Below are positions 21,265-53,225 of a stretch of 64,000 bases of DNA, piece by piece (position 1 is the stretch's first letter; the number at the start of each line of letters is the position of its first letter). Below the pieces are notes generated by a model. The model was not told the DNA's origin, searched no databases, and was given only the letters and a program-made list of their open reading frames with translations. The DNA is from the human T2T-CHM13v2.0 reference genome, Homo sapiens. The DNA lies in the NCBI RefSeq assembly GCF_009914755.1, contig NC_060930.1, one strand, 5' to 3'. A program made the translations under genes and the position numbers.

Positions 21265-22124
21265 TTAAATACATATTCATAATTATTTCATTAAATTGCA
21301 ATATTAAATCCCTGAAAGATATTACAGGTGCTCTCATTTTCCCCATAGCTATTTATACCTAAATCATGTACCTTAAATCATTTATAGGTCACTTTTCTCA
21401 TCTGTGAGTTGAAAGGGTTATAGGACACATGTTCTTGTCATATTTGGGGATTACTGAGAGAATTCCCTGGACAATGTCTATTGATAGTCGTGGTTATCAT
21501 GTAAAAGCTAATAGTTCATGAGGCTCTAGACTTTTTCTAATCCTGATTTTATAGATGAGAATATAGAAGTTCTAAAAAGTTTAAGCTCAACTCAAAGTGA
21601 ATATCCAATTTATCAATAATTTAAATAAAAGAAGAAAAGCTTATGATTTGAATTTCATGATCCTTCACCTTCTGATTTTTTTGCAATAAAATATCTCTAG
21701 AATTATGAACAAATATAAATAATTTGAGACAATCTAGTATGTTCTTTTAAAGTAGAAATTCCTACAGTTATCAAACATACTAGTGAAAGCTCATTGCCAC
21801 AGTTTTTGATGTTTGCACTTGGACTTAGAGGCAAACATACCCCTATAAACTTCAAGACTCTACAAGTCCTTCGTGTGAACTATTTCTTTTTTTTTTTTTT
21901 TTTTTTTATTTATTTTTTTATTATACTTTAAGTTTTAGGGTACATGTGCACATTGTGCAGGTTAGTTACATATGTATACATGTGCCATGCTGGTACGCTG
22001 CACCCACTAACTTGTCATCTAGCATTAGGTATATCTCCCAGTGCTATCCCTCCCCCCTCCCCCCACCCCACAACAGTCCCCAGAGTGTGATATTCCCCTT
22101 CCTGTGTCCATGTGATCTCATTGT

Positions 22125-25947
<3,823 letters not shown>

Positions 25948-26010
25948 TATGATGTTAGCTCGTTATTTTGCTCGTTAGTTGATGCAGTTTCTTCCTAGTC
26001 TCGATGGTCT

Positions 26011-27027
26011 TTACATTTTGGCATGATTTTGCAGCAGCTGGTACCAGTTGTTCCTTTCCATGTTTAGCGCTTCCTTCAGGAGCTCTTTTAGGGCAGGCCT
26101 GGTGGTGACAAAATCGCTCAGCATTTGCTTGTCTGTAAAGTATTTTATTTCTCCTTCACTTATGAAGCTTAGTTTGGCTGGATATGAAATTCTGGGTTGA
26201 AAATTCTTTTCTTTAAGAATGTTGAATATTGGCCCCCACTCTCTTCTGGCTTGCAGGGTTTCTGCTGAGAGATCCGCTGATAGTCTGATAGGCTTCCCTT
26301 TGAGGGTAACCCGACCTTTCTCTCTGGCTGCCCTTAACATTTTTTCCTTCATTTCAACTTTGGTGAATCTGACAATTATGTGTCTTGGAGTTGCTCTTCT
26401 CGAGGAGTATCTTTGTGGCGTTCTCTGTATTTCCTGAATCTGAACGTTGGCCTGCCTTGCTAGATTGGGGAAGTTCTCCTGGATAATATCCTGCAGAGTG
26501 TTTTCCAACTTGGTTCCATTCTCCCCATCACTTTCAGGTACACCAATCAGACGGAGATTTGGTCTTTTCACATAGTCCCATATTTCTTGGAGGCTTTGCT
26601 CATTTCTTTTTATTCTTTTTTCTCTAAACTTCCCTTCTCGCTTCATTTCATTCATTTCATCTTCCATCACTGATACCCTTTCTTCCAGTTGATCGCATCG
26701 GCTCCTGAGGCTTCTGCATTCTTCACGTAGTTCTCGAGCCTTGGTTTTCAGCTCCATCAGCTCCTTTAAGCACTTCTCTGTATTGGTTATTCTAGTTATA
26801 CATTCTTCTAAATTTTTTTCAAAGTTTTCAACTTCTTTGCCTTTGGTTTGAATGTCCTCCCGTAGCTCAGAGTAATTTGATCGTCTGAAGCCTTCTTCTC
26901 TCAGCTCGTCAAAGTCATTCTCCATCCAGCTTTGTTCTGTTGCTGGTGAGGAACTGCGTTCCTTTGGAGGAGGAGAGGTGCTCTGCGTTTTAGAGTTTCC
27001 CGTTTTTCTGTTCTCTTTTTTCCCCAT
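26011..27027 (-). CDS. L1 ORF1p RNA-binding protein/chaperone, intact 338 aa
   Basis: Full-length ORF MGKKENRK...NHAKM retaining the REKG, ARR and YPAKLS motifs. Confidence 0.95.
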   Translation of the reverse strand: MGKKENRKTGNSKTQSTSPPPKERSSSPATEQSWMENDFDELREEGFRRSNYSELREDIQTKGKEVENFEKNLEECITRITNTEKCLKELMELKTKARELREECRSLRSRCDQLEERVSVMEDEMNEMKREGKFREKRIKRNEQSLQEIWDYVKRPNLRLIGVPESDGENGTKLENTLQDIIQENFPNLARQANVQIQEIQRTPQRYSSRRATPRHIIVRFTKVEMKEKMLRAAREKGRVTLKGKPIRLSADLSAETLQARREWGPIFNILKEKNFQPRISYPAKLSFISEGEIKYFTDKQMLSDFVTTRPALKELLKEALNMERNNWYQLLQNHAKM

Positions 27028-27928
27028 CTTTGTGGTTTTATCTACTTTTGGTCTTTGATGATGGTGATGTACAGATGGGTTTTTGGTGTGGATGTCCTTT
27101 CTGTTTGTTAGTTTTCCTTCTAACAGACAGGACCCTCAGCTGCAGGTCAGTTGGAATACCCTGCCGTGTGAGGTGTCAGTGTGCCCCTTCTGGGGGGTGC
27201 CTCCCAGTTAGGCTGCTCGGGGGTCAGGGGTCAGGGACCCACTTGAGGAGGCAGTCTGCCCGTTCTCAGATCTCCAGCTGCGTGCTGGGAGAACCACTGC
27301 TCTCTTCAAAGCTCTCAGACAGGGACATTTAAGTCTGCAGAGGTTACTGCTGTCTTTTTGTTTGTCTGTGCCCTGCCCCCAGAGGTGGAGCCTACAGAGG
27401 CAGGCAGGCCTCCTTGAGCTGTGGTGGGCTCCACCCAGTTCGCGCTTCCCGGCTGCTTTGTTTACCTAAGCAAGCCTGGGCAATGGCGGGCGCCCCTCCC
27501 CCAGCCTCGCTGCCGCCTTGCAGTTTGATCTCAGACTGCTGTGCTAGCAATCAGGGAGACTCCGTGGGCGTAGGACCCTGCGAGCCAGGTGCCGGATATA
27601 ATCTCGTGGTGCGCTGTTTTTTAAGCCGGTCGGAAAAGCGCAGTATTCGGGTGGGAGTGACCCGATTTTCCAGGTGCCGTCTGTCACCCCTTTCTTTGAC
27701 TCAGAAAGGGAACTCCCTGACCCCTTGCGCTTCCCAAGTGAGGCAATGCCTCGCCCTGCTTCGGGTCGCGCACGGTGCGCGCACCCACTGACCTGCGCCC
27801 ACTGTCTGGCACTCCCTAGTGAGATGAACCCGGTACCTCAGATGGAAATGCAGAAATCACCCGTCTTCTGCGTCGCTCACGCTGTAGACCGGAGCTGTTC
27901 CTATTCGGCCATCTTGGCTCCTCCCCCC
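27028..27928 (-). promoter_or_regulatory. L1 5'UTR internal sense promoter plus antisense promoter, CpG-rich
   Basis: Intact YY1 site CAAGATGGCCG (27906-27916, minus strand). Most CpG-dense stretch in the window. Confidence 0.85.
27483..27791 (+). CDS. L1 antisense ORF0, open 102-aa form
   Basis: ATG at 27483 gives MAGAPPPASLPPCSLISDCCASNQ..., the recognisable ORF0 N-terminus. Open to TGA at 27791; translation not shown. Confidence 0.65.
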   Translation: MAGAPPPASLPPCSLISDCCASNQGDSVGVGPCEPGAGYNLVVRCFLSRSEKRSIRVGVTRFSRCRLSPLSLTQKGNSLTPCASQVRQCLALLRVAHGARTH

Positions 27929-28482
27929 CGTGTGAACTATTTCTAAGGACGTTTTGGCAACTGAGTTTTAGAGATATTTCAAAAAAACTTTAGCATTAGT
28001 ATTTAAGGGATCTTTTAAAAGCTTTCATTTTACACTTTTGTTACCCCCCTCCCCAAGTACAAGCTTATGGCTGCTCATGTGAAGTTGGAGACAAGGCAAA
28101 GTACACTCTCAAATCACCTTCCCATGTAACTGTGCTTATTTTGGGGAACAGCTGTACACCTCTATTCTCAGCAGAGTCAGCTGAAGCTAATGGCTCTTTT
28201 GCTCTGAATCTTACCATCTTACCTTTTAAGTCCTTTCAGGACATCATTCACAATCGCATCACAACCATCTTCAGATCCGCTACTCTCCTTAAGCATATTC
28301 AATTTCCATCACTGTGAAAACCAAATGAAATTCTATTACTTAATATTGCCCCTGCTCATGACTATCATGGACACTATATCTTTTTCTTTTTTTTCATTGC
28401 CAACTTCAGGAATATTGCATAACTAACTGATTATCCATTCATTCATTCCTAGATTCAACCATTTATTAAGAATGTTAATTGG

Positions 28483-30789: not shown

Positions 30790-31125
30790 AAAAATATATT
30801 TAGTGGGTACTGCTGAGGATTTCTTGCATGCATATATTGCATAGTGGTGAGGTCTGGGCTTTTAGTACACCCATCTCCTAAATAGTGAGCATTGTACCCA
30901 GTGGGTCATTTTTCAACCTTCATCCTGCTCTCCCATGTTTCGGAGTCAGCATCTACTATTCCCCTCTGTATGTTCATGTGGGCCCATTATTTAGCTCCCA
31001 TGTATAAGTGAGGACGTGCAGTGTTTGACTTTCTATTTTTGAGTGATTTCAGTTAGGATAATGGCTTCCAGTGCCATCCATGTTGCTGCATAAGACATGG
31101 TCTCATTCTTTTTTATGGCTGAGAA
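30790..31125 (-). mobile_element. L1PB-type 3' end fragment
   Basis: L1 3'UTR-like sequence (tttagctccca...tccatgttgctgca...tcattctttttatggctga). Confidence 0.7.
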
Positions 31126-31134
31126 GTATAGTGT

Positions 31135-31819
<685 letters not shown>

Positions 31820-48397: not shown

Positions 48398-49747
48398 TTC
48401 ATGAAGTAAGAATTTTATAATTATTTTTTGCTACAGTTTTGCTATTTCATATTTCATCTCTGAATATATTTTGTTATCGTTTTAATTTAATTCATCTGGG
48501 AATCAGCAGTTTTAAAAACATTAACTTTGTTTTTTCCGGAACACAGTTGAATTCATTTCTCAAGTTAAGATGTGTGTTTGAAACTCTGAGTTGTAGTATA
48601 TCTAACCCAGCAAACCAGCCTTAGTAATTTTAAATGCAGTGATAGAGTTCCTTGCTGTTCCTAAACTCACAGCTGAGTATTTGTTTTTTAATTGTCTTTT
48701 TCATTTATTTCTTCATCCTCTTTCGGGGCATTCTTTCACTTTCAGGATTTGTCAACCTCTTGCTTAATTGTTTCAAATTACATTCTAGTAAATGCAGCAC
48801 AAATCTAACTTAATGGAAGCAAGAAAGCTCTTCATCTTATCTCACCTTTGGGAATGCAATGTCCTGCTGTCTTTCTGGTTTATACCTAACTTCTACAAAG
48901 CAGAACAAAGAGAAGAGGGATTAATCAGGGGGGATATCTATAATAGGTAGACCTAGAGGTAGAAAGTAAATATGCAAAGAACGTTTATGTTCATTAGGTA
49001 AATTAGTAGTAAGAAAATCGATTTATTAAATTGTATAATCATATGTTTTAGGGGTTTTGTACACAGAGTGTGGCAAAATTATACACAGACCAGTTGTAAA
49101 AAATATATAGATGACACTATCTACAGTATCTTTTCAGTGAAAAGATCATTGAGTATCTTTTCACAAATATATGTATTTGTGAATATATATACAAATATAA
49201 AAAGACATTTTCATGTCTATTTTTGTCATTTGTTTTGTATTTCCACTAAGCTTTTGAAAGGCTATGTTATTAATTGCAAATACAATCGCTGCCCGTACAA
49301 AGAAACTTCGTTAGTTACATGAGTTTGAAACAGCTCCCCTATCCCTTTTAAATTTCCATTTTCTCCTTTTCATACTTGAGCATCCTTCTTAGATAAAGAA
49401 TATATAGTTTTACTCTTTGCACTTATTAAGATTTAAGAGTGATAGAGTTTTGTATTTCTTATTGTTAAATGAAAAAATGAATAAAAATTTGTTGATATCC
49501 AGCCTTAGGAAGTTATAGGGGAATATAAAATTTATTTATACAAACAATATCATACGGATGACATGTTAGCATCATAGACCCTTGATATGAGATATTGGAG
49601 GACACATCACTTCTGTTGCATTCTTGCCAAAAACACAAAGTCTTAATGCGACCATCAGTTAAACCCAAGTGAACAGACATTCTACAAAAGAGCAGACCAG
49701 TGGTCTTCAAAACACTCTGTTAAGGTCATAGAAAACAATGAAAGACT

Positions 49748-50241
49748 TTTTTTAAATTTTATTATTATTATACTGTAAGTTTTAAGGTACATGTGCACAA
49801 CGTGCAGGTTTGTTACATATGTATACATGTGCCACGCTGGTGTGCTGCACCCATTAACTCGTCATTTAGCATTAGGTGTATCTCCTAAAGCTATCCCTCC
49901 CCCCTCCCCCCACCCCACAACAGTCCCCAGAGTGTGATGTTCCCCTTCCTGTGTCCATGTGTTCTCATTGTTCAATTCCCACCTATGAGTGAGAACATGC
50001 GGTGTTTGGTTTTTTGTTCTTGGAATAGTTTACTGAGAATGATGATTTCCAATTTCATCCATGTCCCTACAAAGGACATGAACTGATCATTTTTTATGGC
50101 TGCATAGTATTCCATGGTGTATATGTGCCACATTTTCTTAATCCAGTCTATCATTGTTGGACATTTGGGTTGGTTCCAAGTCTTTGCTATTGTGAATAGT
50201 GCCGCAATAAACATACGTGTGCATGTGTCTTTATAGCAGCA
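49748..50241 (-). mobile_element. L1PA3/4 3' end (ORF2 C-terminus + 3'UTR), the inverted part of a larger insertion
   Basis: Encodes ...MFIAALFTIAKTWNQPKCPT...FSLIGGN. 3'UTR has the GAG triplet and AACAAACCTGCACGTTG, i.e. older than L1PA2. Confidence 0.93.
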
Positions 50242-50956
50242 AAAAAACACCAAAAAACAAAACAAAAACAAAAACAAAAACCAAACAACAATAACGATCA
50301 AATATACCAAAGGAGCAAGAGGAGTTTAGGTTGTGGGTAGTGGCAGAGGCAGAAGAATCTGAGCCATCTCTAGTCTTAAATATCTGTGAGTCTGAGTCCT
50401 CTTTGAACTTCTTGGGGCTTTGTAGAAGATGAGAGAGGAGAACCCACATGACAGGAGGCAGGGCAGGGCAACTTGTCATCTTCTTACCCATCTTGGCTTA
50501 TGCATATTTTGCGTAGTGATTTCTGTTTGGAAATTGATTTACAGCAATTGCAGGTGGCCAAGAGAGCTTGTTTCAAGGCAGGATTTGAAGGGGAAAAGAA
50601 AAGACCTTGTCCAAAGCTTTCTCCAAGGCAGGTCATGCTGAGTGAAGGTTCCTTGTTGGAAAAGAAAGGAATTCCCCACGGGGTCCTGTCGTCTCACTCC
50701 AGCTGACGGCTCTATTGCAGGTATGGTGCCTCCATGGCTGTCAGTCATTTGAGGGGAACCTCTGACCCCCAAGACCTCCCTGGGTTATTAAGGGAGATGG
50801 CATACATGTGTCAGGCTGGTGATGGTGTATGTGACACAGAAACTGTCACAGAGCAAAGATGGCGGAAGCTGAGCACCTGATTCCCCAAAGCAGCCACCAA
50901 GTCATGCCTGATGTTAGTGCTCCATTAGAGGGTGTACTGCCTGAGGGTCATATGTG

Positions 50957-50958
<2 letters not shown>

Positions 50959-51028
<70 letters not shown>

Positions 51029-51040
51029 GAGAGTGTGTGT
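50959..51040. repeat. (TG)n(GA)n compound microsatellite inside the transduced segment
   Basis: Read directly. Confidence 0.95.
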
Positions 51041-53225
51041 ATGTGAGCATGAGGGGCCAAGGGAGAATATCTTAATGGGATTTCTAGTCTTCCTTGTTTA
51101 TTTCACACACACAATTCTGAATTAACACCTCCATTCATGTACTTGATGTTGCCACTGAATAACTATATAGAAGGATTTGATGTCTGGAACTCCAGCCACT
51201 TATTTCTGCTGACTGTAAAACCATAGCAGTTGGTGAGCTGTTCATTTAGCTAGCACTAAAGATGCCCAGATAACACCCCCACCAGATTGTTGCTCATCTA
51301 TACTTTGTAAATATGCTTCTACATGTGGGTACACACATGTATTAATCTCATTTGTTTCCTAAATATGAAACTGAATTTGGAATAAATCCATCAGGAATAT
51401 GGGCCTAACAACACATTTAAATAGTCACCAATTGGTGCCAATAGCTCTGTAATAATTTGTTCTCAGTTCAGTTTCCCAAACTGAAGAGCTCTTCCTCAGT
51501 CCTTTCTTATCTAGAACCCATAAGTTCAAGAGATTCAGAGAATTTTCTATTAGTGCTGTGATCTTTGCCAGCTGTAGTTTAGTCTACAATTTGATCTATC
51601 TGGGGTGTAAGTACTTGTTAATGGGTTTTGAAGCCCAGAATAATAAATAATGCTTAGGAATCTTTTATAACAGGCCTGGAATAGATTTTTAAAGCAAACT
51701 GAGGTAGATTTTCAACATGCGTATAAGGTACATATATTCTGTTCTGGCAGAAACCAGAACAGTTCTGGTGGAAAAGTTTCTTTGTTCATTCAATAAATAA
51801 TTAGATATGCAAAAAAAAAACAATGAAAGACTAAGAAAATATCAGAGTCTGGAGGAGACTAAGGAACTGTGGCAACTAAATGCAATGTGAGATCCTGGAT
51901 GGGATCTTGGGACTGAAAAAAGACAATGGAGGAAAAAGTAGCAAGATCAGAATAAAGTCTGTAGTTCAGAGAATAGTGTAGTACCCATGTTAAGTGCTTG
52001 GTTTCAGTAATTATCTTCATGGTTATAGAGAAGGCTGACATCAGGGAAAGCTAGACAAAGGTATAGGAGAAGTCTCTTTTACGCGTTGTAATACAGGTAA
52101 TAGTTTCACAACTTATTTATAACTCTAAATTTATAAAATAAAACATTTAAAATATTAAATAAAATGTATTTGAAAGAGAATAAAATAAAATATTTTAAAA
52201 CTATAGTCGTCCTCCTTCCTGAGAATTCTGTAGGGGCATGCTAGTCCAGTACACATTCATTTTTCCTCTTTATTTTACTCAAATTTGAAGTTTGTGTTTA
52301 TTTCATATTAATAGACACTAGCATCAAATCCTAACTTAAATTTAAAAGGGAGCTTAAAACCAAGCAATTTAATCTCTTTATAAACCATGACACTCATCTG
52401 AAAATAATGCATGTAGATGAGAAAACATTTCATAGTCAGCCCATGCAAGTCTGTGAGTGAGCTGAGACCAGCACTCAGGAACCCTCAGACTCAATGTAGT
52501 TCTTTTCCTTACCACTCTGACTCCAGACTCAAGAGTGTTAGTAGCAGCATTTCTGATTTTATGATTTACCATAGGCATTTTTAAATGACAGAGGATGACT
52601 TTAAATGATTTAAGACCTACTTCACGCCCATGATCTACTCAGAGCCAGTTTTGTTGTTTTGTTTTGTTTCGTTTTCCATAAATGTGTTCCCTGGGCTTGC
52701 GTTGCTAAATGAAATTCAAAACTAGTGATATACAAATAGATTCATCAAAGGCAAACATCATTTCATTTATTAGTGGTCACCGGTGGCTCATAAACAAAGT
52801 ACAATCTATTGAATAAAACAGATTGCTTTTTTGATTCTATTGATTGTTTCTTTGAATTTTCTGAGGATAATTTAGTAACAAAAGCCTTTCTCCACCATTA
52901 CTTCTAATATATGTATTTACTCACGTATTTTTCTTTTGCTTACACAGAGAAAATGAAATAATTAAAGCAGTTTTTCAATTTTTCTGCAATTTGTACTTAG
53001 ATCTTATGAGGGAAACCTGTGGATCAGTTATTTCTTTGCACATACACTGTGCATGTGTGTGTTTTTCTTCTTCAACTTGAAAGGACAGGGCTTTTGTCTC
53101 TTCTACAGAATTGAAAGCAAAAACTCAAAGATCCTTAATGCTTCTGGTGTGGATCTGAACCACCAATGACTAAGCTGCTAAGTAGCAAGACTACCCATAT
53201 GATAGTAGTTTCATATTATATTTAA

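What the first reader, a model, noticed from the sequence alone, without database searches (positions are those of the whole stretch)
49732..51832. Hidden 2.07-kb twin-primed L1 insertion: inverted L1 3' end plus ~1.5 kb of transduced foreign DNA
Seen: the apparent minus-strand L1PA3/4 fragment (49748-50241) has no TSD at its right edge. The 16-mer next to its T-tail (aaaacaatgaaagact, 49732-49747) recurs perfectly at 51817-51832, directly after AATAAA (51792) and a PLUS-strand poly(A). An A/C-rich tract (50241-~50293) sits at the junction, and the outer flanks rejoin into one old L1M. Established: L1 read-through produces 3' transductions, and twin priming inverts the 5' part of an insert. 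Inference: the RNA was L1 + its A-tail + ~1.5 kb of downstream flank. The second primer annealed in the source element's own A-tail, so all L1 sequence is inverted and the junction tract is the rest of that tail. Segment 50294-51810 is then a retrocopy of another locus that a repeat masker would leave as unique DNA.
Basis: partly seen in the sequence, partly recalled or inferred. Interest (0 to 1): 0.85.

Follow-up and report, generated by a model that had tools for sequence, protein, structure and literature searches.

The report
Twin-primed L1 insertion carrying chr2 DNA
A single old LINE-1 jumping event dropped a 2.07-kb package here, made of an upside-down L1 tail piece plus a 1.5-kb copy of a chromosome 2 sequence; this is an ordinary, known kind of retrotransposon by-product, with the small twist that the L1 which should have carried the chromosome 2 piece is no longer at its source.

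Summary
The 16-mer AAAACAATGAAAGACT occurs exactly twice in the window, at 49732-47 and 51817-32. In 9 of 16 paralogous copies of the flanking old repeat it occurs once, with the two flanks abutting. So it is a true target-site duplication around a 2,069-bp insert (49748-51816).

The insert has three parts:
- An inverted L1 3' end of 494 nt.
- A 35-nt A/C-rich tract.
- A colinear, unspliced copy of C2:176333012-176334531, 97.7% identical at aligned bases. It ends 13 nt after AATAAA in a short A-run that chr2 lacks.

One twin-primed retrotransposition event explains all of this.

However, homology stops at a TTTT/AT endonuclease-type site, and the A-rich tract sits exactly where a source L1's tail would be.

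My best reading (~0.6) is a partnered 3' transduction from a source L1 that was never fixed or was later lost. The main rival (~0.25) is a chimera made from two RNAs.

This is a new member of a known kind. It overlaps no gene, and interest is low.

The parts
49560..49731 (+). Left part of the old L1 3' UTR that was the target of the insertion
   Evidence: Matches an old interspersed repeat at 68-86% identity (40 scored of 62 candidates). Paralogues continue directly into the right flank. ORF2 remnants lie upstream in L031, L047 and L056.
49732..49747 (.). Left copy of the 16-bp target-site duplication AAAACAATGAAAGACT
   Evidence: The base before it is G, so the first-strand nick on the bottom strand reads 5'-TTTT/CT-3' (read).
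49748..50241 (-). Inverted, 5'-truncated L1 3' end (494 nt). 49748-49753 is T6, the complement of the first 6 A after the L1 end ...AATAAAATTT
   Evidence: 94.13% identical, ungapped, to window 21901-22394; 96-97% identical to 39 genomic copies; its 3' end compared with 12 close copies. L1 homology runs to 50241.
50242..50276 (+). A/C-rich tract (35 nt, 28 A and 7 C) with no counterpart on chr2. Read as the remainder of the source L1's A-tail
   Evidence: No match of 16 nt or more in C2:176328000-176346000.
50277..51814 (+). Unspliced retrocopy of C2:176334531-176333012 (minus strand). Contains a (GT)n(GA)n microsatellite at about 50958-51035 that is 18 nt longer than in the parent
   Evidence: only 2 places in the genome; 96.4% identity over 1539 columns; full alignment; 35 mismatches in 1519 aligned bases.
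51792..51797 (+). AATAAA poly(A) signal, conserved in the chr2 parent
51811..51816 (+). Remnant of the poly(A) tail. 51811-51814 also match AAAA on chr2, so only 2-6 A are untemplated
   Evidence: chr2 continues TATGTGATG, while the window continues with A and then the TSD.
51817..51832 (.). Right copy of the 16-bp target-site duplication
51833..52077 (+). Right part of the old L1 3' UTR target, followed by its degenerate A-rich tail at about 52120-52210
   Evidence: 40 scored of 582 candidates, 69-81% identity, query reach to 261. for the rejoining. The tail was read by eye.

Best explanation
A single L1-mediated retrotransposition event, roughly of great-ape-stem age, inserted 2,069 bp into the 3' UTR of an old L1.

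**Shown:**
- The event has a real 16-bp TSD.
- Its 3' part is an RNA-derived, unspliced copy of chr2 sequence. The copy ends 13 nt after an AATAAA hexamer in an A-run that is absent from chr2.
- Its 5' part is an inverted L1 3' end whose own A-run abuts the left TSD.

**Inferred mechanism, twin priming on one read-through RNA:**
1. An active L1PA had inserted on chr2, in the minus-strand sense, at ...TTACAT/AAAACC... This is a TTTT/AT endonuclease site on the opposite strand.
2. Its transcript ran through the weak L1 poly(A) signal. It was cleaved at the next strong AATAAA, 1.54 kb downstream.
3. At the chr6 target the bottom-strand nick (TTTT/CT) primed cDNA 1 on the 3' poly(A). cDNA 1 copied the 1.54 kb of flank and about 35 nt of the source element's A-rich tail.
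4. The top-strand end (...GACT-3') annealed 6-7 nt into that same tail. It primed cDNA 2 back into the L1 for 494 nt.
5. The two cDNA ends were joined at ...GCAG(CA)|AAAAAA.

All L1 sequence is therefore inverted relative to the transduced DNA. The source L1 on chr2 was never fixed, or was later lost, so only its offspring records it. The insert has no evident function: it overlaps no annotated gene.
For: **It is a true insertion.**
- TSD: (exact 16-mer, 0 of 100 shuffles).
- In 9 of 16 paralogous repeat copies the flanks abut with the 16-mer present once.

**chr2 is the parent and chr6 the copy.**
- Only two places in the genome hold the 1.5 kb.
- Homology covers window 50277-51814. It ends in GATATGCAAAA, 13 nt after AATAAA. 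After that chr6 has extra A plus the TSD, while chr2 continues with a GT-rich stretch.

**Geometry fits twin priming.**
- The inverted L1 abuts the 5' TSD by its 3' end with only 6-7 A.
- The nick for a plus-oriented insertion is TTTT/CT. The other junction, GACT/AAGA, is not endonuclease-like, as expected for a second-strand end (read).
- The forward part is 1.57 kb and the inverted part 0.49 kb. Published medians for twin-primed insertions are 1.51 kb and 0.54 kb (bioRxiv 10.1101/2024.08.27.596794, passages).

**Evidence for a former L1 at the parent.**
- chr2 homology starts exactly at T|AAAACC, which is TTTT/AT on the other strand.
- Immediately 5' of it, chr6 carries a plus-sense 35-nt tract of 28 A and 7 C. 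This tract has no counterpart within 18 kb of the chr2 locus. That is the place and polarity of a source element's tail.

**Ages agree.**
- Parent and copy differ at 35 of 1519 aligned bases, 2.3%.
- The L1 piece is 96-97% identical to its closest genomic copies.

**Precedent in print.**
- 30% of partnered transductions carry a 5' inversion, and some sources have inversion breakpoints in the transduced part (PMC13009371, passages).
- 51 of 268 L1 transduction sources are non-reference (PMC9311842, Table 4).

**No sign of an independent gene at the parent.**
- It lies 91.9 kb beyond the only Lunapark Zn-ribbon exon found.
- It has no plus-sense ORF above 88 aa.
- No splice-acceptor AG precedes the homology start.
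Against: - The defining prediction was tested and not met in this assembly. No L1 lies directly upstream of the chr2 parent.
- The only L1-like 3' ends within C2:176328000-176346000 do not fit. One is 81% identical, antisense and 2.1 kb upstream. The other is 77% identical and lies downstream of the parent.
- No sibling transduction from the postulated source exists.
- The lost-source assumption cannot be checked here, because no other human haplotype or primate genome is held.
- The endonuclease-like, A-rich homology boundary would also favour a template switch or a microhomology join. It therefore does not discriminate cleanly between the readings.
- The terminal poly(A) is very short, with only 2-6 untemplated A.
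- The A/C pattern of the tract could equally have arisen after insertion from a pure A run, or by microsatellite growth from the AAAACCAAACAACA seed.
- I had no transcript annotation for chr2, so an independent transcription unit there is not excluded.
Confidence: 0.6

Rival explanations
1. A two-RNA chimera made in one TPRT event. An L1-independent, polyadenylated chr2 transcript was mobilised in trans and served as the first-strand template. The L1 part came from a separate L1 mRNA. Either the second, top-strand primer annealed at the start of that mRNA's poly(A) tail (twin priming on two templates), or cDNA 1 first jumped from the A-rich chr2 site onto that tail (template switch) before twin priming.
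For: - The chr2 parent has no L1 upstream.
- Chimeras with the non-L1 and L1 parts in opposite orientation have been catalogued and attributed to twin priming with two RNAs (PMC13174262, passages).
- The homology boundary AAAACCAAACA is A-rich. It would pair well with a T-ended cDNA or a poly(A) tail.
- It even shares 12 nt with an L1-internal site (I8).
Against: - It needs an independent transcript of an apparently intergenic, unspliced stretch, for which I have no evidence.
- In the plain two-template form the 35-nt plus-sense A/C tract is unexplained. In the template-switch form two rare steps must coincide.
- Priming only 6-7 nt into a long mRNA poly(A) tail would be a coincidence.
- In the published chimeras L1 is the 3', primary-TPRT part. 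Here it would be the other way round.
- Cis-preference makes an L1 read-through RNA the far commoner template (established knowledge, recalled).
Confidence: 0.25
2. Two nested, independent insertions. First a retrocopy of the chr2 RNA arrived with the 16-bp TSD. Later a 5'-truncated L1 landed in the opposite orientation exactly at the retrocopy's 5' junction.
For: The L1 and the chr2 piece have opposite polarity, and the parent lacks an L1.
Against: - The L1 piece has no TSD of its own. No further copy of the sequence left of its T-run occurs at its right edge.
- Its implied nick, GACT/AAGA or GACT/CAAA, is not endonuclease-like.
- It would have had to land precisely between the TSD and the first base of the earlier insert.
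- The 35-nt tract remains unexplained.
Confidence: 0.04
3. A DNA-level event with no RNA intermediate: a templated patch or segmental duplication of chr2 DNA captured at a double-strand break next to an L1 fragment.
For: - The terminal A-run is short, and 4 of its A are also on chr2.
- The copy is colinear with the genomic DNA.
Against: - The copy ends 13 nt after AATAAA at a CA, as expected of mRNA 3' cleavage.
- There is a 16-bp TSD beginning AAAA at a TTTT/C nick.
- An L1 3' end with its A-run lies at the other junction.
- Together these are the hallmarks of TPRT.
Confidence: 0.03

Closest known systems
Partnered L1 3' transduction with a 5' inversion (twin priming; Ostertag & Kazazian 2001, recalled and seen only in reference lists)
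   Same: - L1 3' end plus a unique downstream-type sequence that ends at its own AATAAA and A-run.
- One TSD around the whole insert.
- An inverted 5' part whose 3' end abuts the 5' TSD.
- Forward and inverted lengths of 1.57 and 0.49 kb, close to the published medians of 1.51 and 0.54 kb.
- Inversions occur in 30% of partnered transductions.
   Different: - The inversion point lies in the source element's own A-tail, so every L1 base is inverted and every transduced base is direct.
- The parent locus carries no L1 in this genome.
Orphan 3' transduction
   Same: To a repeat masker the 1.5 kb looks like unique DNA. It is a retrocopy of non-genic sequence bounded by a poly(A) signal.
   Different: L1 sequence is present within the same TSD, although inverted. 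The event is therefore partnered, not orphan.
Antisense RNA/L1 chimeric insertions attributed to twin priming on two RNAs (Law & Burns 2026, PMC13174262)
   Same: Non-L1 and L1 segments lie in opposite orientation inside one TSD.
   Different: - In that catalogue L1 is the 3', poly(A)-primed part and the other RNA sits at the 5' end. Here the non-L1 part is 3' and L1 is 5'.
- An A-rich tract in plus sense lies between them.
- I did not find this locus in the 4 supplementary files held. That search used approximate hg38 coordinates and is weak.
Processed pseudogene (retrocopy of an mRNA)
   Same: RNA-derived copy ending at a poly(A) site, with a TSD.
   Different: - No introns were removed and no long ORF is present. 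No protein search was run on the segment.
- The parent is 91.9 kb from the nearest gene marker I could place.

Membership tests
L1-mediated (TPRT) insertion | Target-site duplication flanking the whole insert, with a single copy at the empty site | tested here: met
   An exact 16-mer lies at both ends. In 9 of 16 paralogous repeat copies the flanks abut with the 16-mer present once. The orthologous empty site itself could not be tested.
L1-mediated (TPRT) insertion | First-strand nick resembling 5'-TTTT/AA-3', and a 3' poly(A) | tested here: met
   The nick is TTTT/CT (4 T, non-consensus after the cut). The A-run of 10 includes 4 TSD bases, leaving 2-6 untemplated A. Both features are met only weakly.
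Twin priming (5' inversion) | The 5' segment is inverted, with its RNA-3' end next to the 5' TSD. The 3' segment is direct, and both lie inside one TSD | tested here: met
Twin priming (5' inversion) | The inverted and direct segments are neighbouring parts of one and the same RNA, with a small deletion or duplication at the junction | tested here: inconclusive
   The pieces fit as L1 end + A6-7 | A-rich 35 nt + flank. But no extant locus carries L1 and the chr2 sequence together.
L1 3' transduction | The non-L1 segment is colinear with a unique locus and ends at a downstream poly(A) signal | tested here: met
   1519 aligned bases with 35 mismatches, and AATAAA conserved in the parent.
L1 3' transduction | The parent locus lies immediately 3' of a source L1 in the same orientation | tested here: not met
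   This assembly has no L1 at ...TTACAT|AAAACC... and no sense-oriented L1PA-like 3' end within 11.5 kb upstream. A lost or unfixed source is not excluded. 51 of 268 modern sources are non-reference.
L1 3' transduction | The source element's A-tail is retained between the L1 and the transduced sequence | tested here: inconclusive
   A 35-nt tract of 28 A and 7 C sits at the right place and polarity and has no chr2 counterpart. Its origin as a tail is inferred.
Processed pseudogene | Introns removed relative to a parent gene | tested here: not met
   The only gaps are one 18-nt microsatellite difference and two 1-nt indels.
   No repeat library is held and I built no consensus. The only data are 96-97% identity to the closest copies and 94% to the window's full-length L1.

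The most novel reading that the evidence does not exclude
The insert is not a transduction. It would be a two-template product: ORF2p started TPRT on an unrelated intergenic chr2 RNA, and the second DNA end primed on the poly(A) tail of a separate L1 mRNA. This would be a chimera of reversed architecture (non-L1 as the 3' part, L1 as the inverted 5' part), which the published catalogues of L1 chimeras that I read (passages of PMC13174262) do not describe.
Probability: 0.22. Interest if true: 0.4.

Novelty: new member of a known kind. Interest (0 to 1): 0.22.

Why it matters
In itself it matters little.

- **No functional consequence seen.** The insert lies in an old L1 in a gene-poor stretch and overlaps no annotated gene or functional element in the hub's table.
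- **Value as a worked example.** It shows about 1.5 kb of 'unique' DNA that repeat masking leaves unflagged but that is in fact L1-delivered. It also shows an insertion whose TSD only makes sense once the inverted L1 and the foreign DNA are read as one event.
- **If the transduction reading is right.** The locus is the only surviving record of an active L1 that once sat at C2:176334531 and then disappeared. This illustrates that transduced tags can outlive their source elements.
- **Practical caution.** The 97.7% paralogy between chr6 and chr2 could mislead read mapping or the interpretation of conserved non-coding sequence near the LNPK side of chr2.

Tried and rejected
- **Pfam scan.** I replaced it with a tblastn of the stop-free ORF pieces of the window's own 6-kb L1 against the paralogue loci.
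- **L1 source upstream on chr2.** I looked in C2:176328000-176346000 and found only two hits.
  - One is 81% identical and antisense. Its 5' part is 92-93% identical to thousands of copies. It is rejected as the source because the window's L1 is 96-97% identical to other copies.
  - The other is 77% identical and lies downstream of the parent.
- **A chr2 origin for the A/C tract.** The best match is 15 nt, in a low-complexity run 5.8 kb away on the other strand. Rejected.
- **Tract as a copy of an L1-internal A-rich site.** There is a 12-nt identity, AAAAACCAAACA (I8), but similarity does not extend further. Rejected as low-complexity chance.
- **LNPK 3' UTR as the parent.** The only Lunapark Zn-ribbon match is 91.9 kb away. 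Rejected. The extent of the LNPK gene itself is recalled, not measured.
- **Coding potential.** The longest plus-strand ORF is 88 aa under bacterial start rules. I did not search it further.
- **Locus in published tables.** I searched the supplementary tables of PMC13174262 for approximate hg38 coordinates: 4 files, 0 occurrences. The coordinates rest on a recalled HULC position, so this is weak.
- **Not run.** I made no structure or complex jobs and no protein-database searches, because the question is not about proteins.
Full report
**1. The observation**

The 16-mer AAAACAATGAAAGACT lies at 49732-49747 and again at 51817-51832.
- With no mismatch allowed these are the only two matches, and none of 100 dinucleotide-preserving shuffles gave two.
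- With up to two mismatches they are still the only two, although 3 of 100 shuffles then reached two.

Window 49748-50241 is an L1 3' end on the minus strand.
- It aligns without a gap over all 494 nt, at 94.13% identity, to the 6-kb L1 elsewhere in the window (21901-22394).
- It is 96-97% identical to each of the 39 non-self genomic copies that were scored, out of 2769 candidates.

AATAAA is at 51792-51797. An A-run of ten follows at 51811-51820, and its last four A are the start of the right 16-mer.

**2. Is the 16-mer a target-site duplication?**

No primate genome is held, so I used paralogues of the flanking repeat as stand-ins for the empty site.
- Both flanks belong to an old interspersed repeat. 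The left flank gave 62 candidates (40 scored, 68-86% identity). The right flank gave 582 candidates (40 scored, 69-81%).
- I examined 58 fetched loci. 37 had a left-flank hit and 39 a right-flank hit. 16 had both on one strand within 400 nt.
- In 9 of these 16 (8 distinct places, since L030 and L040 are one place) the subject coordinates of the two hits overlap by exactly 16 nt. In the paralogue the left flank therefore runs straight into the right flank, with the 16-mer present once.
- In the other 7 the alignments stopped short of the junction on one or both sides. Their implied offsets were -63, -41, -20, -17, -12, -9 and -2, so they are uninformative.

Hence 49748-51816 (2,069 bp) is an insertion and the 16-mer is its TSD.

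The target is an old L1 3' UTR. In L031, L047 and L056 an L1 ORF2 C-terminal remnant lies upstream on the same strand. These remnants are 36-69% identical to the window's L1PA-type ORF2 pieces. The name 'L1M' is from recall.

**3. What the 'unique' 1.5 kb is**

A search of the whole assembly found exactly two places for 50294-51810: the window itself and C2:176333016-176334514 on the minus strand (2 of 2 candidates scored).
- Blastn and a global alignment extend the homology to window 50277-51814 against C2:176334531-176333012.
- There are 1519 aligned bases with 35 mismatches: 23 transitions and 12 transversions, 8 of them in CpG context.
- There are 20 gap columns. 18 are a length difference in a (GT)n(GA)n microsatellite and 2 are single-base indels.
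- The copy is colinear with the genomic DNA, so nothing was spliced out.

At the 3' end, homology stops in GATATGCAAAA, 13 nt after the AATAAA hexamer. chr2 then continues TATGTGATGTTT. The window continues with A and then the TSD. chr2 is therefore the parent, and the chr6 copy was made from an RNA cleaved at that poly(A) site. Because chr2 itself has AAAA there, only 2-6 A of the tail are untemplated. This is a very short tail.

**4.

It does not.
- In the sense of the copied RNA, chr2 reads ...ATCGCAGTGGTATTTTGGTTATGTTACAT|AAAACCAAACAACAGTAACG..., with no L1 before the bar.
- Within C2:176328000-176346000 there are only two L1-like 3' ends.
  - One is 81% identical, lies 2.1 kb upstream and is in antisense orientation. 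It belongs to an older family whose neighbouring part is 92-93% identical to thousands of copies.
  - The other is 77% identical and lies downstream of the parent.
- No sibling insertion carrying any part of the 1.5 kb exists.

As stated, the prediction failed.

**5. What still points to a former L1 at the parent**

Two features stand out.
- chr2 homology begins exactly at T|AAAACC. On the opposite strand this is 5'-GGTTTT/ATGTAA-3', which matches the L1 endonuclease preference TTTT/A. An L1 inserted there in the sense of the RNA would be followed by its tail and then by AAAACCAAACAACAG...
- In the window, the 35 nt immediately before that point (50242-50276) are a plus-sense tract of 28 A and 7 C: AAAAAACACCAAAAAACAAAACAAAAACAAAAACA. 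The tract has no counterpart within the 18 kb of chr2 examined. The best match is 15 nt, in a low-complexity run 5.8 kb away on the other strand.

This is where the tail of a source L1 would be, and it has the right polarity. The other end of the story fits too.
- The inverted L1 ends ...AATAAAATTT followed by only 6 A. There may be a seventh, shared with the last T of the TSD.
- 5 of 12 close L1 copies end AATAAAATT followed by their A-tails.
- Put together, the pieces read: L1 end, A6-7, then the 35-nt A-rich tract, then chr2 flank. This is what twin priming gives if the second primer anneals 6-7 nt into the tail and the first cDNA stops there.

**6. Mechanism**

The TSD begins AAAA and is preceded by G. 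The first-strand nick for a plus-oriented insert is therefore TTTT/CT on the bottom strand. The junction at the other end (GACT/AAGA on the top strand) is not endonuclease-like, as expected of the second-strand break that supplies the internal primer.

The inversion junction reads ...TTTATAGCAG CA|AAAAAA. L1 homology runs through the CA at 50240-50241, after which the window's other L1 continues with TG.

The forward part is 1.57 kb and the inverted part 0.49 kb. These are close to the medians of 1.51 and 0.54 kb reported for twin-primed somatic insertions (bioRxiv 10.1101/2024.08.27.596794, passages).

Relevant points in print:
- 30% of partnered transductions have a 5' inversion, and some sources have inversion breakpoints in their transduced sequence (PMC13009371, passages).
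- 1,047 polymorphic L1 insertions carry 5' inversions, and 466 of 5,311 L1 insertions carry transductions (PMC12350158, passages).
- 51 of 268 L1 transduction sources are non-reference elements (PMC9311842, Table 4).

A source that is missing from a given genome is therefore well precedented. For an event this old, loss of an unfixed source by drift is the expected fate (inference).

**7. Age**

The parent-copy divergence of 2.30% (Jukes-Cantor 2.34%) lies between the human-gorilla and human-orangutan divergences as I recall them. The 96-97% identity of the L1 piece to its closest copies is compatible with that. I could not assign the L1PA subfamily: no repeat library is held and I built no consensus.

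**8. Rivals**

- **Two-RNA chimera (~0.25).** An independent chr2 transcript is the first-strand template and a separate L1 mRNA is the template of the second primer. A variant has a template switch from the A-rich chr2 site onto an L1 poly(A) tail. Law & Burns (PMC13174262, passages) attribute antisense RNA/L1 chimeras to exactly this kind of twin priming.
  - Against it: the plain form leaves the 35-nt tract unexplained.
  - It needs transcription of an apparently intergenic, unspliced stretch. The stretch lies 91.9 kb from the Lunapark Zn-ribbon exon, has no long ORF and has no acceptor AG at the boundary.
  - It needs priming only 6-7 nt into a long poly(A).
  - It has the reverse architecture of the published cases.
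  - I cannot exclude it with the data at hand.
- **Nested independent insertions (~0.04) and a DNA-level patch (~0.03).** Both are disfavoured: the L1 piece has no TSD of its own, and the TPRT hallmarks are present.

**9. Verdict**

- That this is one twin-primed L1-mediated insertion delivering a retrocopy of chr2 DNA is well supported (about 0.9).
- That the chr2 DNA travelled as a 3' transduction of a source L1 is inferred, and it requires a source that has since vanished (about 0.6).

Either way this is a further example of a known class, in a place with no annotated gene. What remains open needs primate orthologues, pangenome haplotypes and chr2 transcript data, none of which are available here.

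Noticed in passing
window 21875-27930 (minus strand): A full-length-sized (~6 kb) L1 with a T-run of about 22 at its left end. In sense orientation it has one 374-aa open piece near the 5' end. The ORF2 region is split into stop-free pieces of 335, 173, 323, 105, 131, 186 and 116 aa, so ORF2 is broken. It is 94% identical to the inverted fragment.
   Followed up: partly
window 50958-51035 vs C2:176333800-176333850: The (GT)n(GA)n microsatellite inside the retrocopy is 18 nt longer in the chr6 copy than in the chr2 parent. This is the only sizeable length difference between them.
   Followed up: no
L003/L004, C2:176336464-176337144 (+ strand): An older L1 3' end lies 1.9-2.1 kb upstream of the parent segment, antisense to it. 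It is 81% identical to the window's L1PA piece, and its 5' part is 92-93% identical to thousands of genomic copies. By eye, a further old L1-like 3' end sits at about C2:176335230-176335525 on the plus strand.
   Followed up: partly
window 50003-50014 and 50276-50287: A 12-nt perfect inverted match: TGTTTGGTTTTT in the inverted L1, and AAAAACCAAACA at the start of the chr2-derived segment (I8). It is probably low-complexity chance, but it sits exactly at the homology boundary.
   Followed up: partly
window 30959-31129: Another old L1-like fragment, 70% identical over 171 nt to part of the inverted L1 piece. It overlaps the masked stretch 31051-31597 in the hub's list.
   Followed up: no
G000:C2:176426402-176426479 (minus strand): The only match in the assembly to Pfam PF10058 (Zn_ribbon_10, 37.7 bits, over the cut-off). 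I take it to be the Lunapark (LNPK) exon. By recall, this places the chr2 parent in the gene-poor stretch on the LNPK side of the HOXD region.
   Followed up: no
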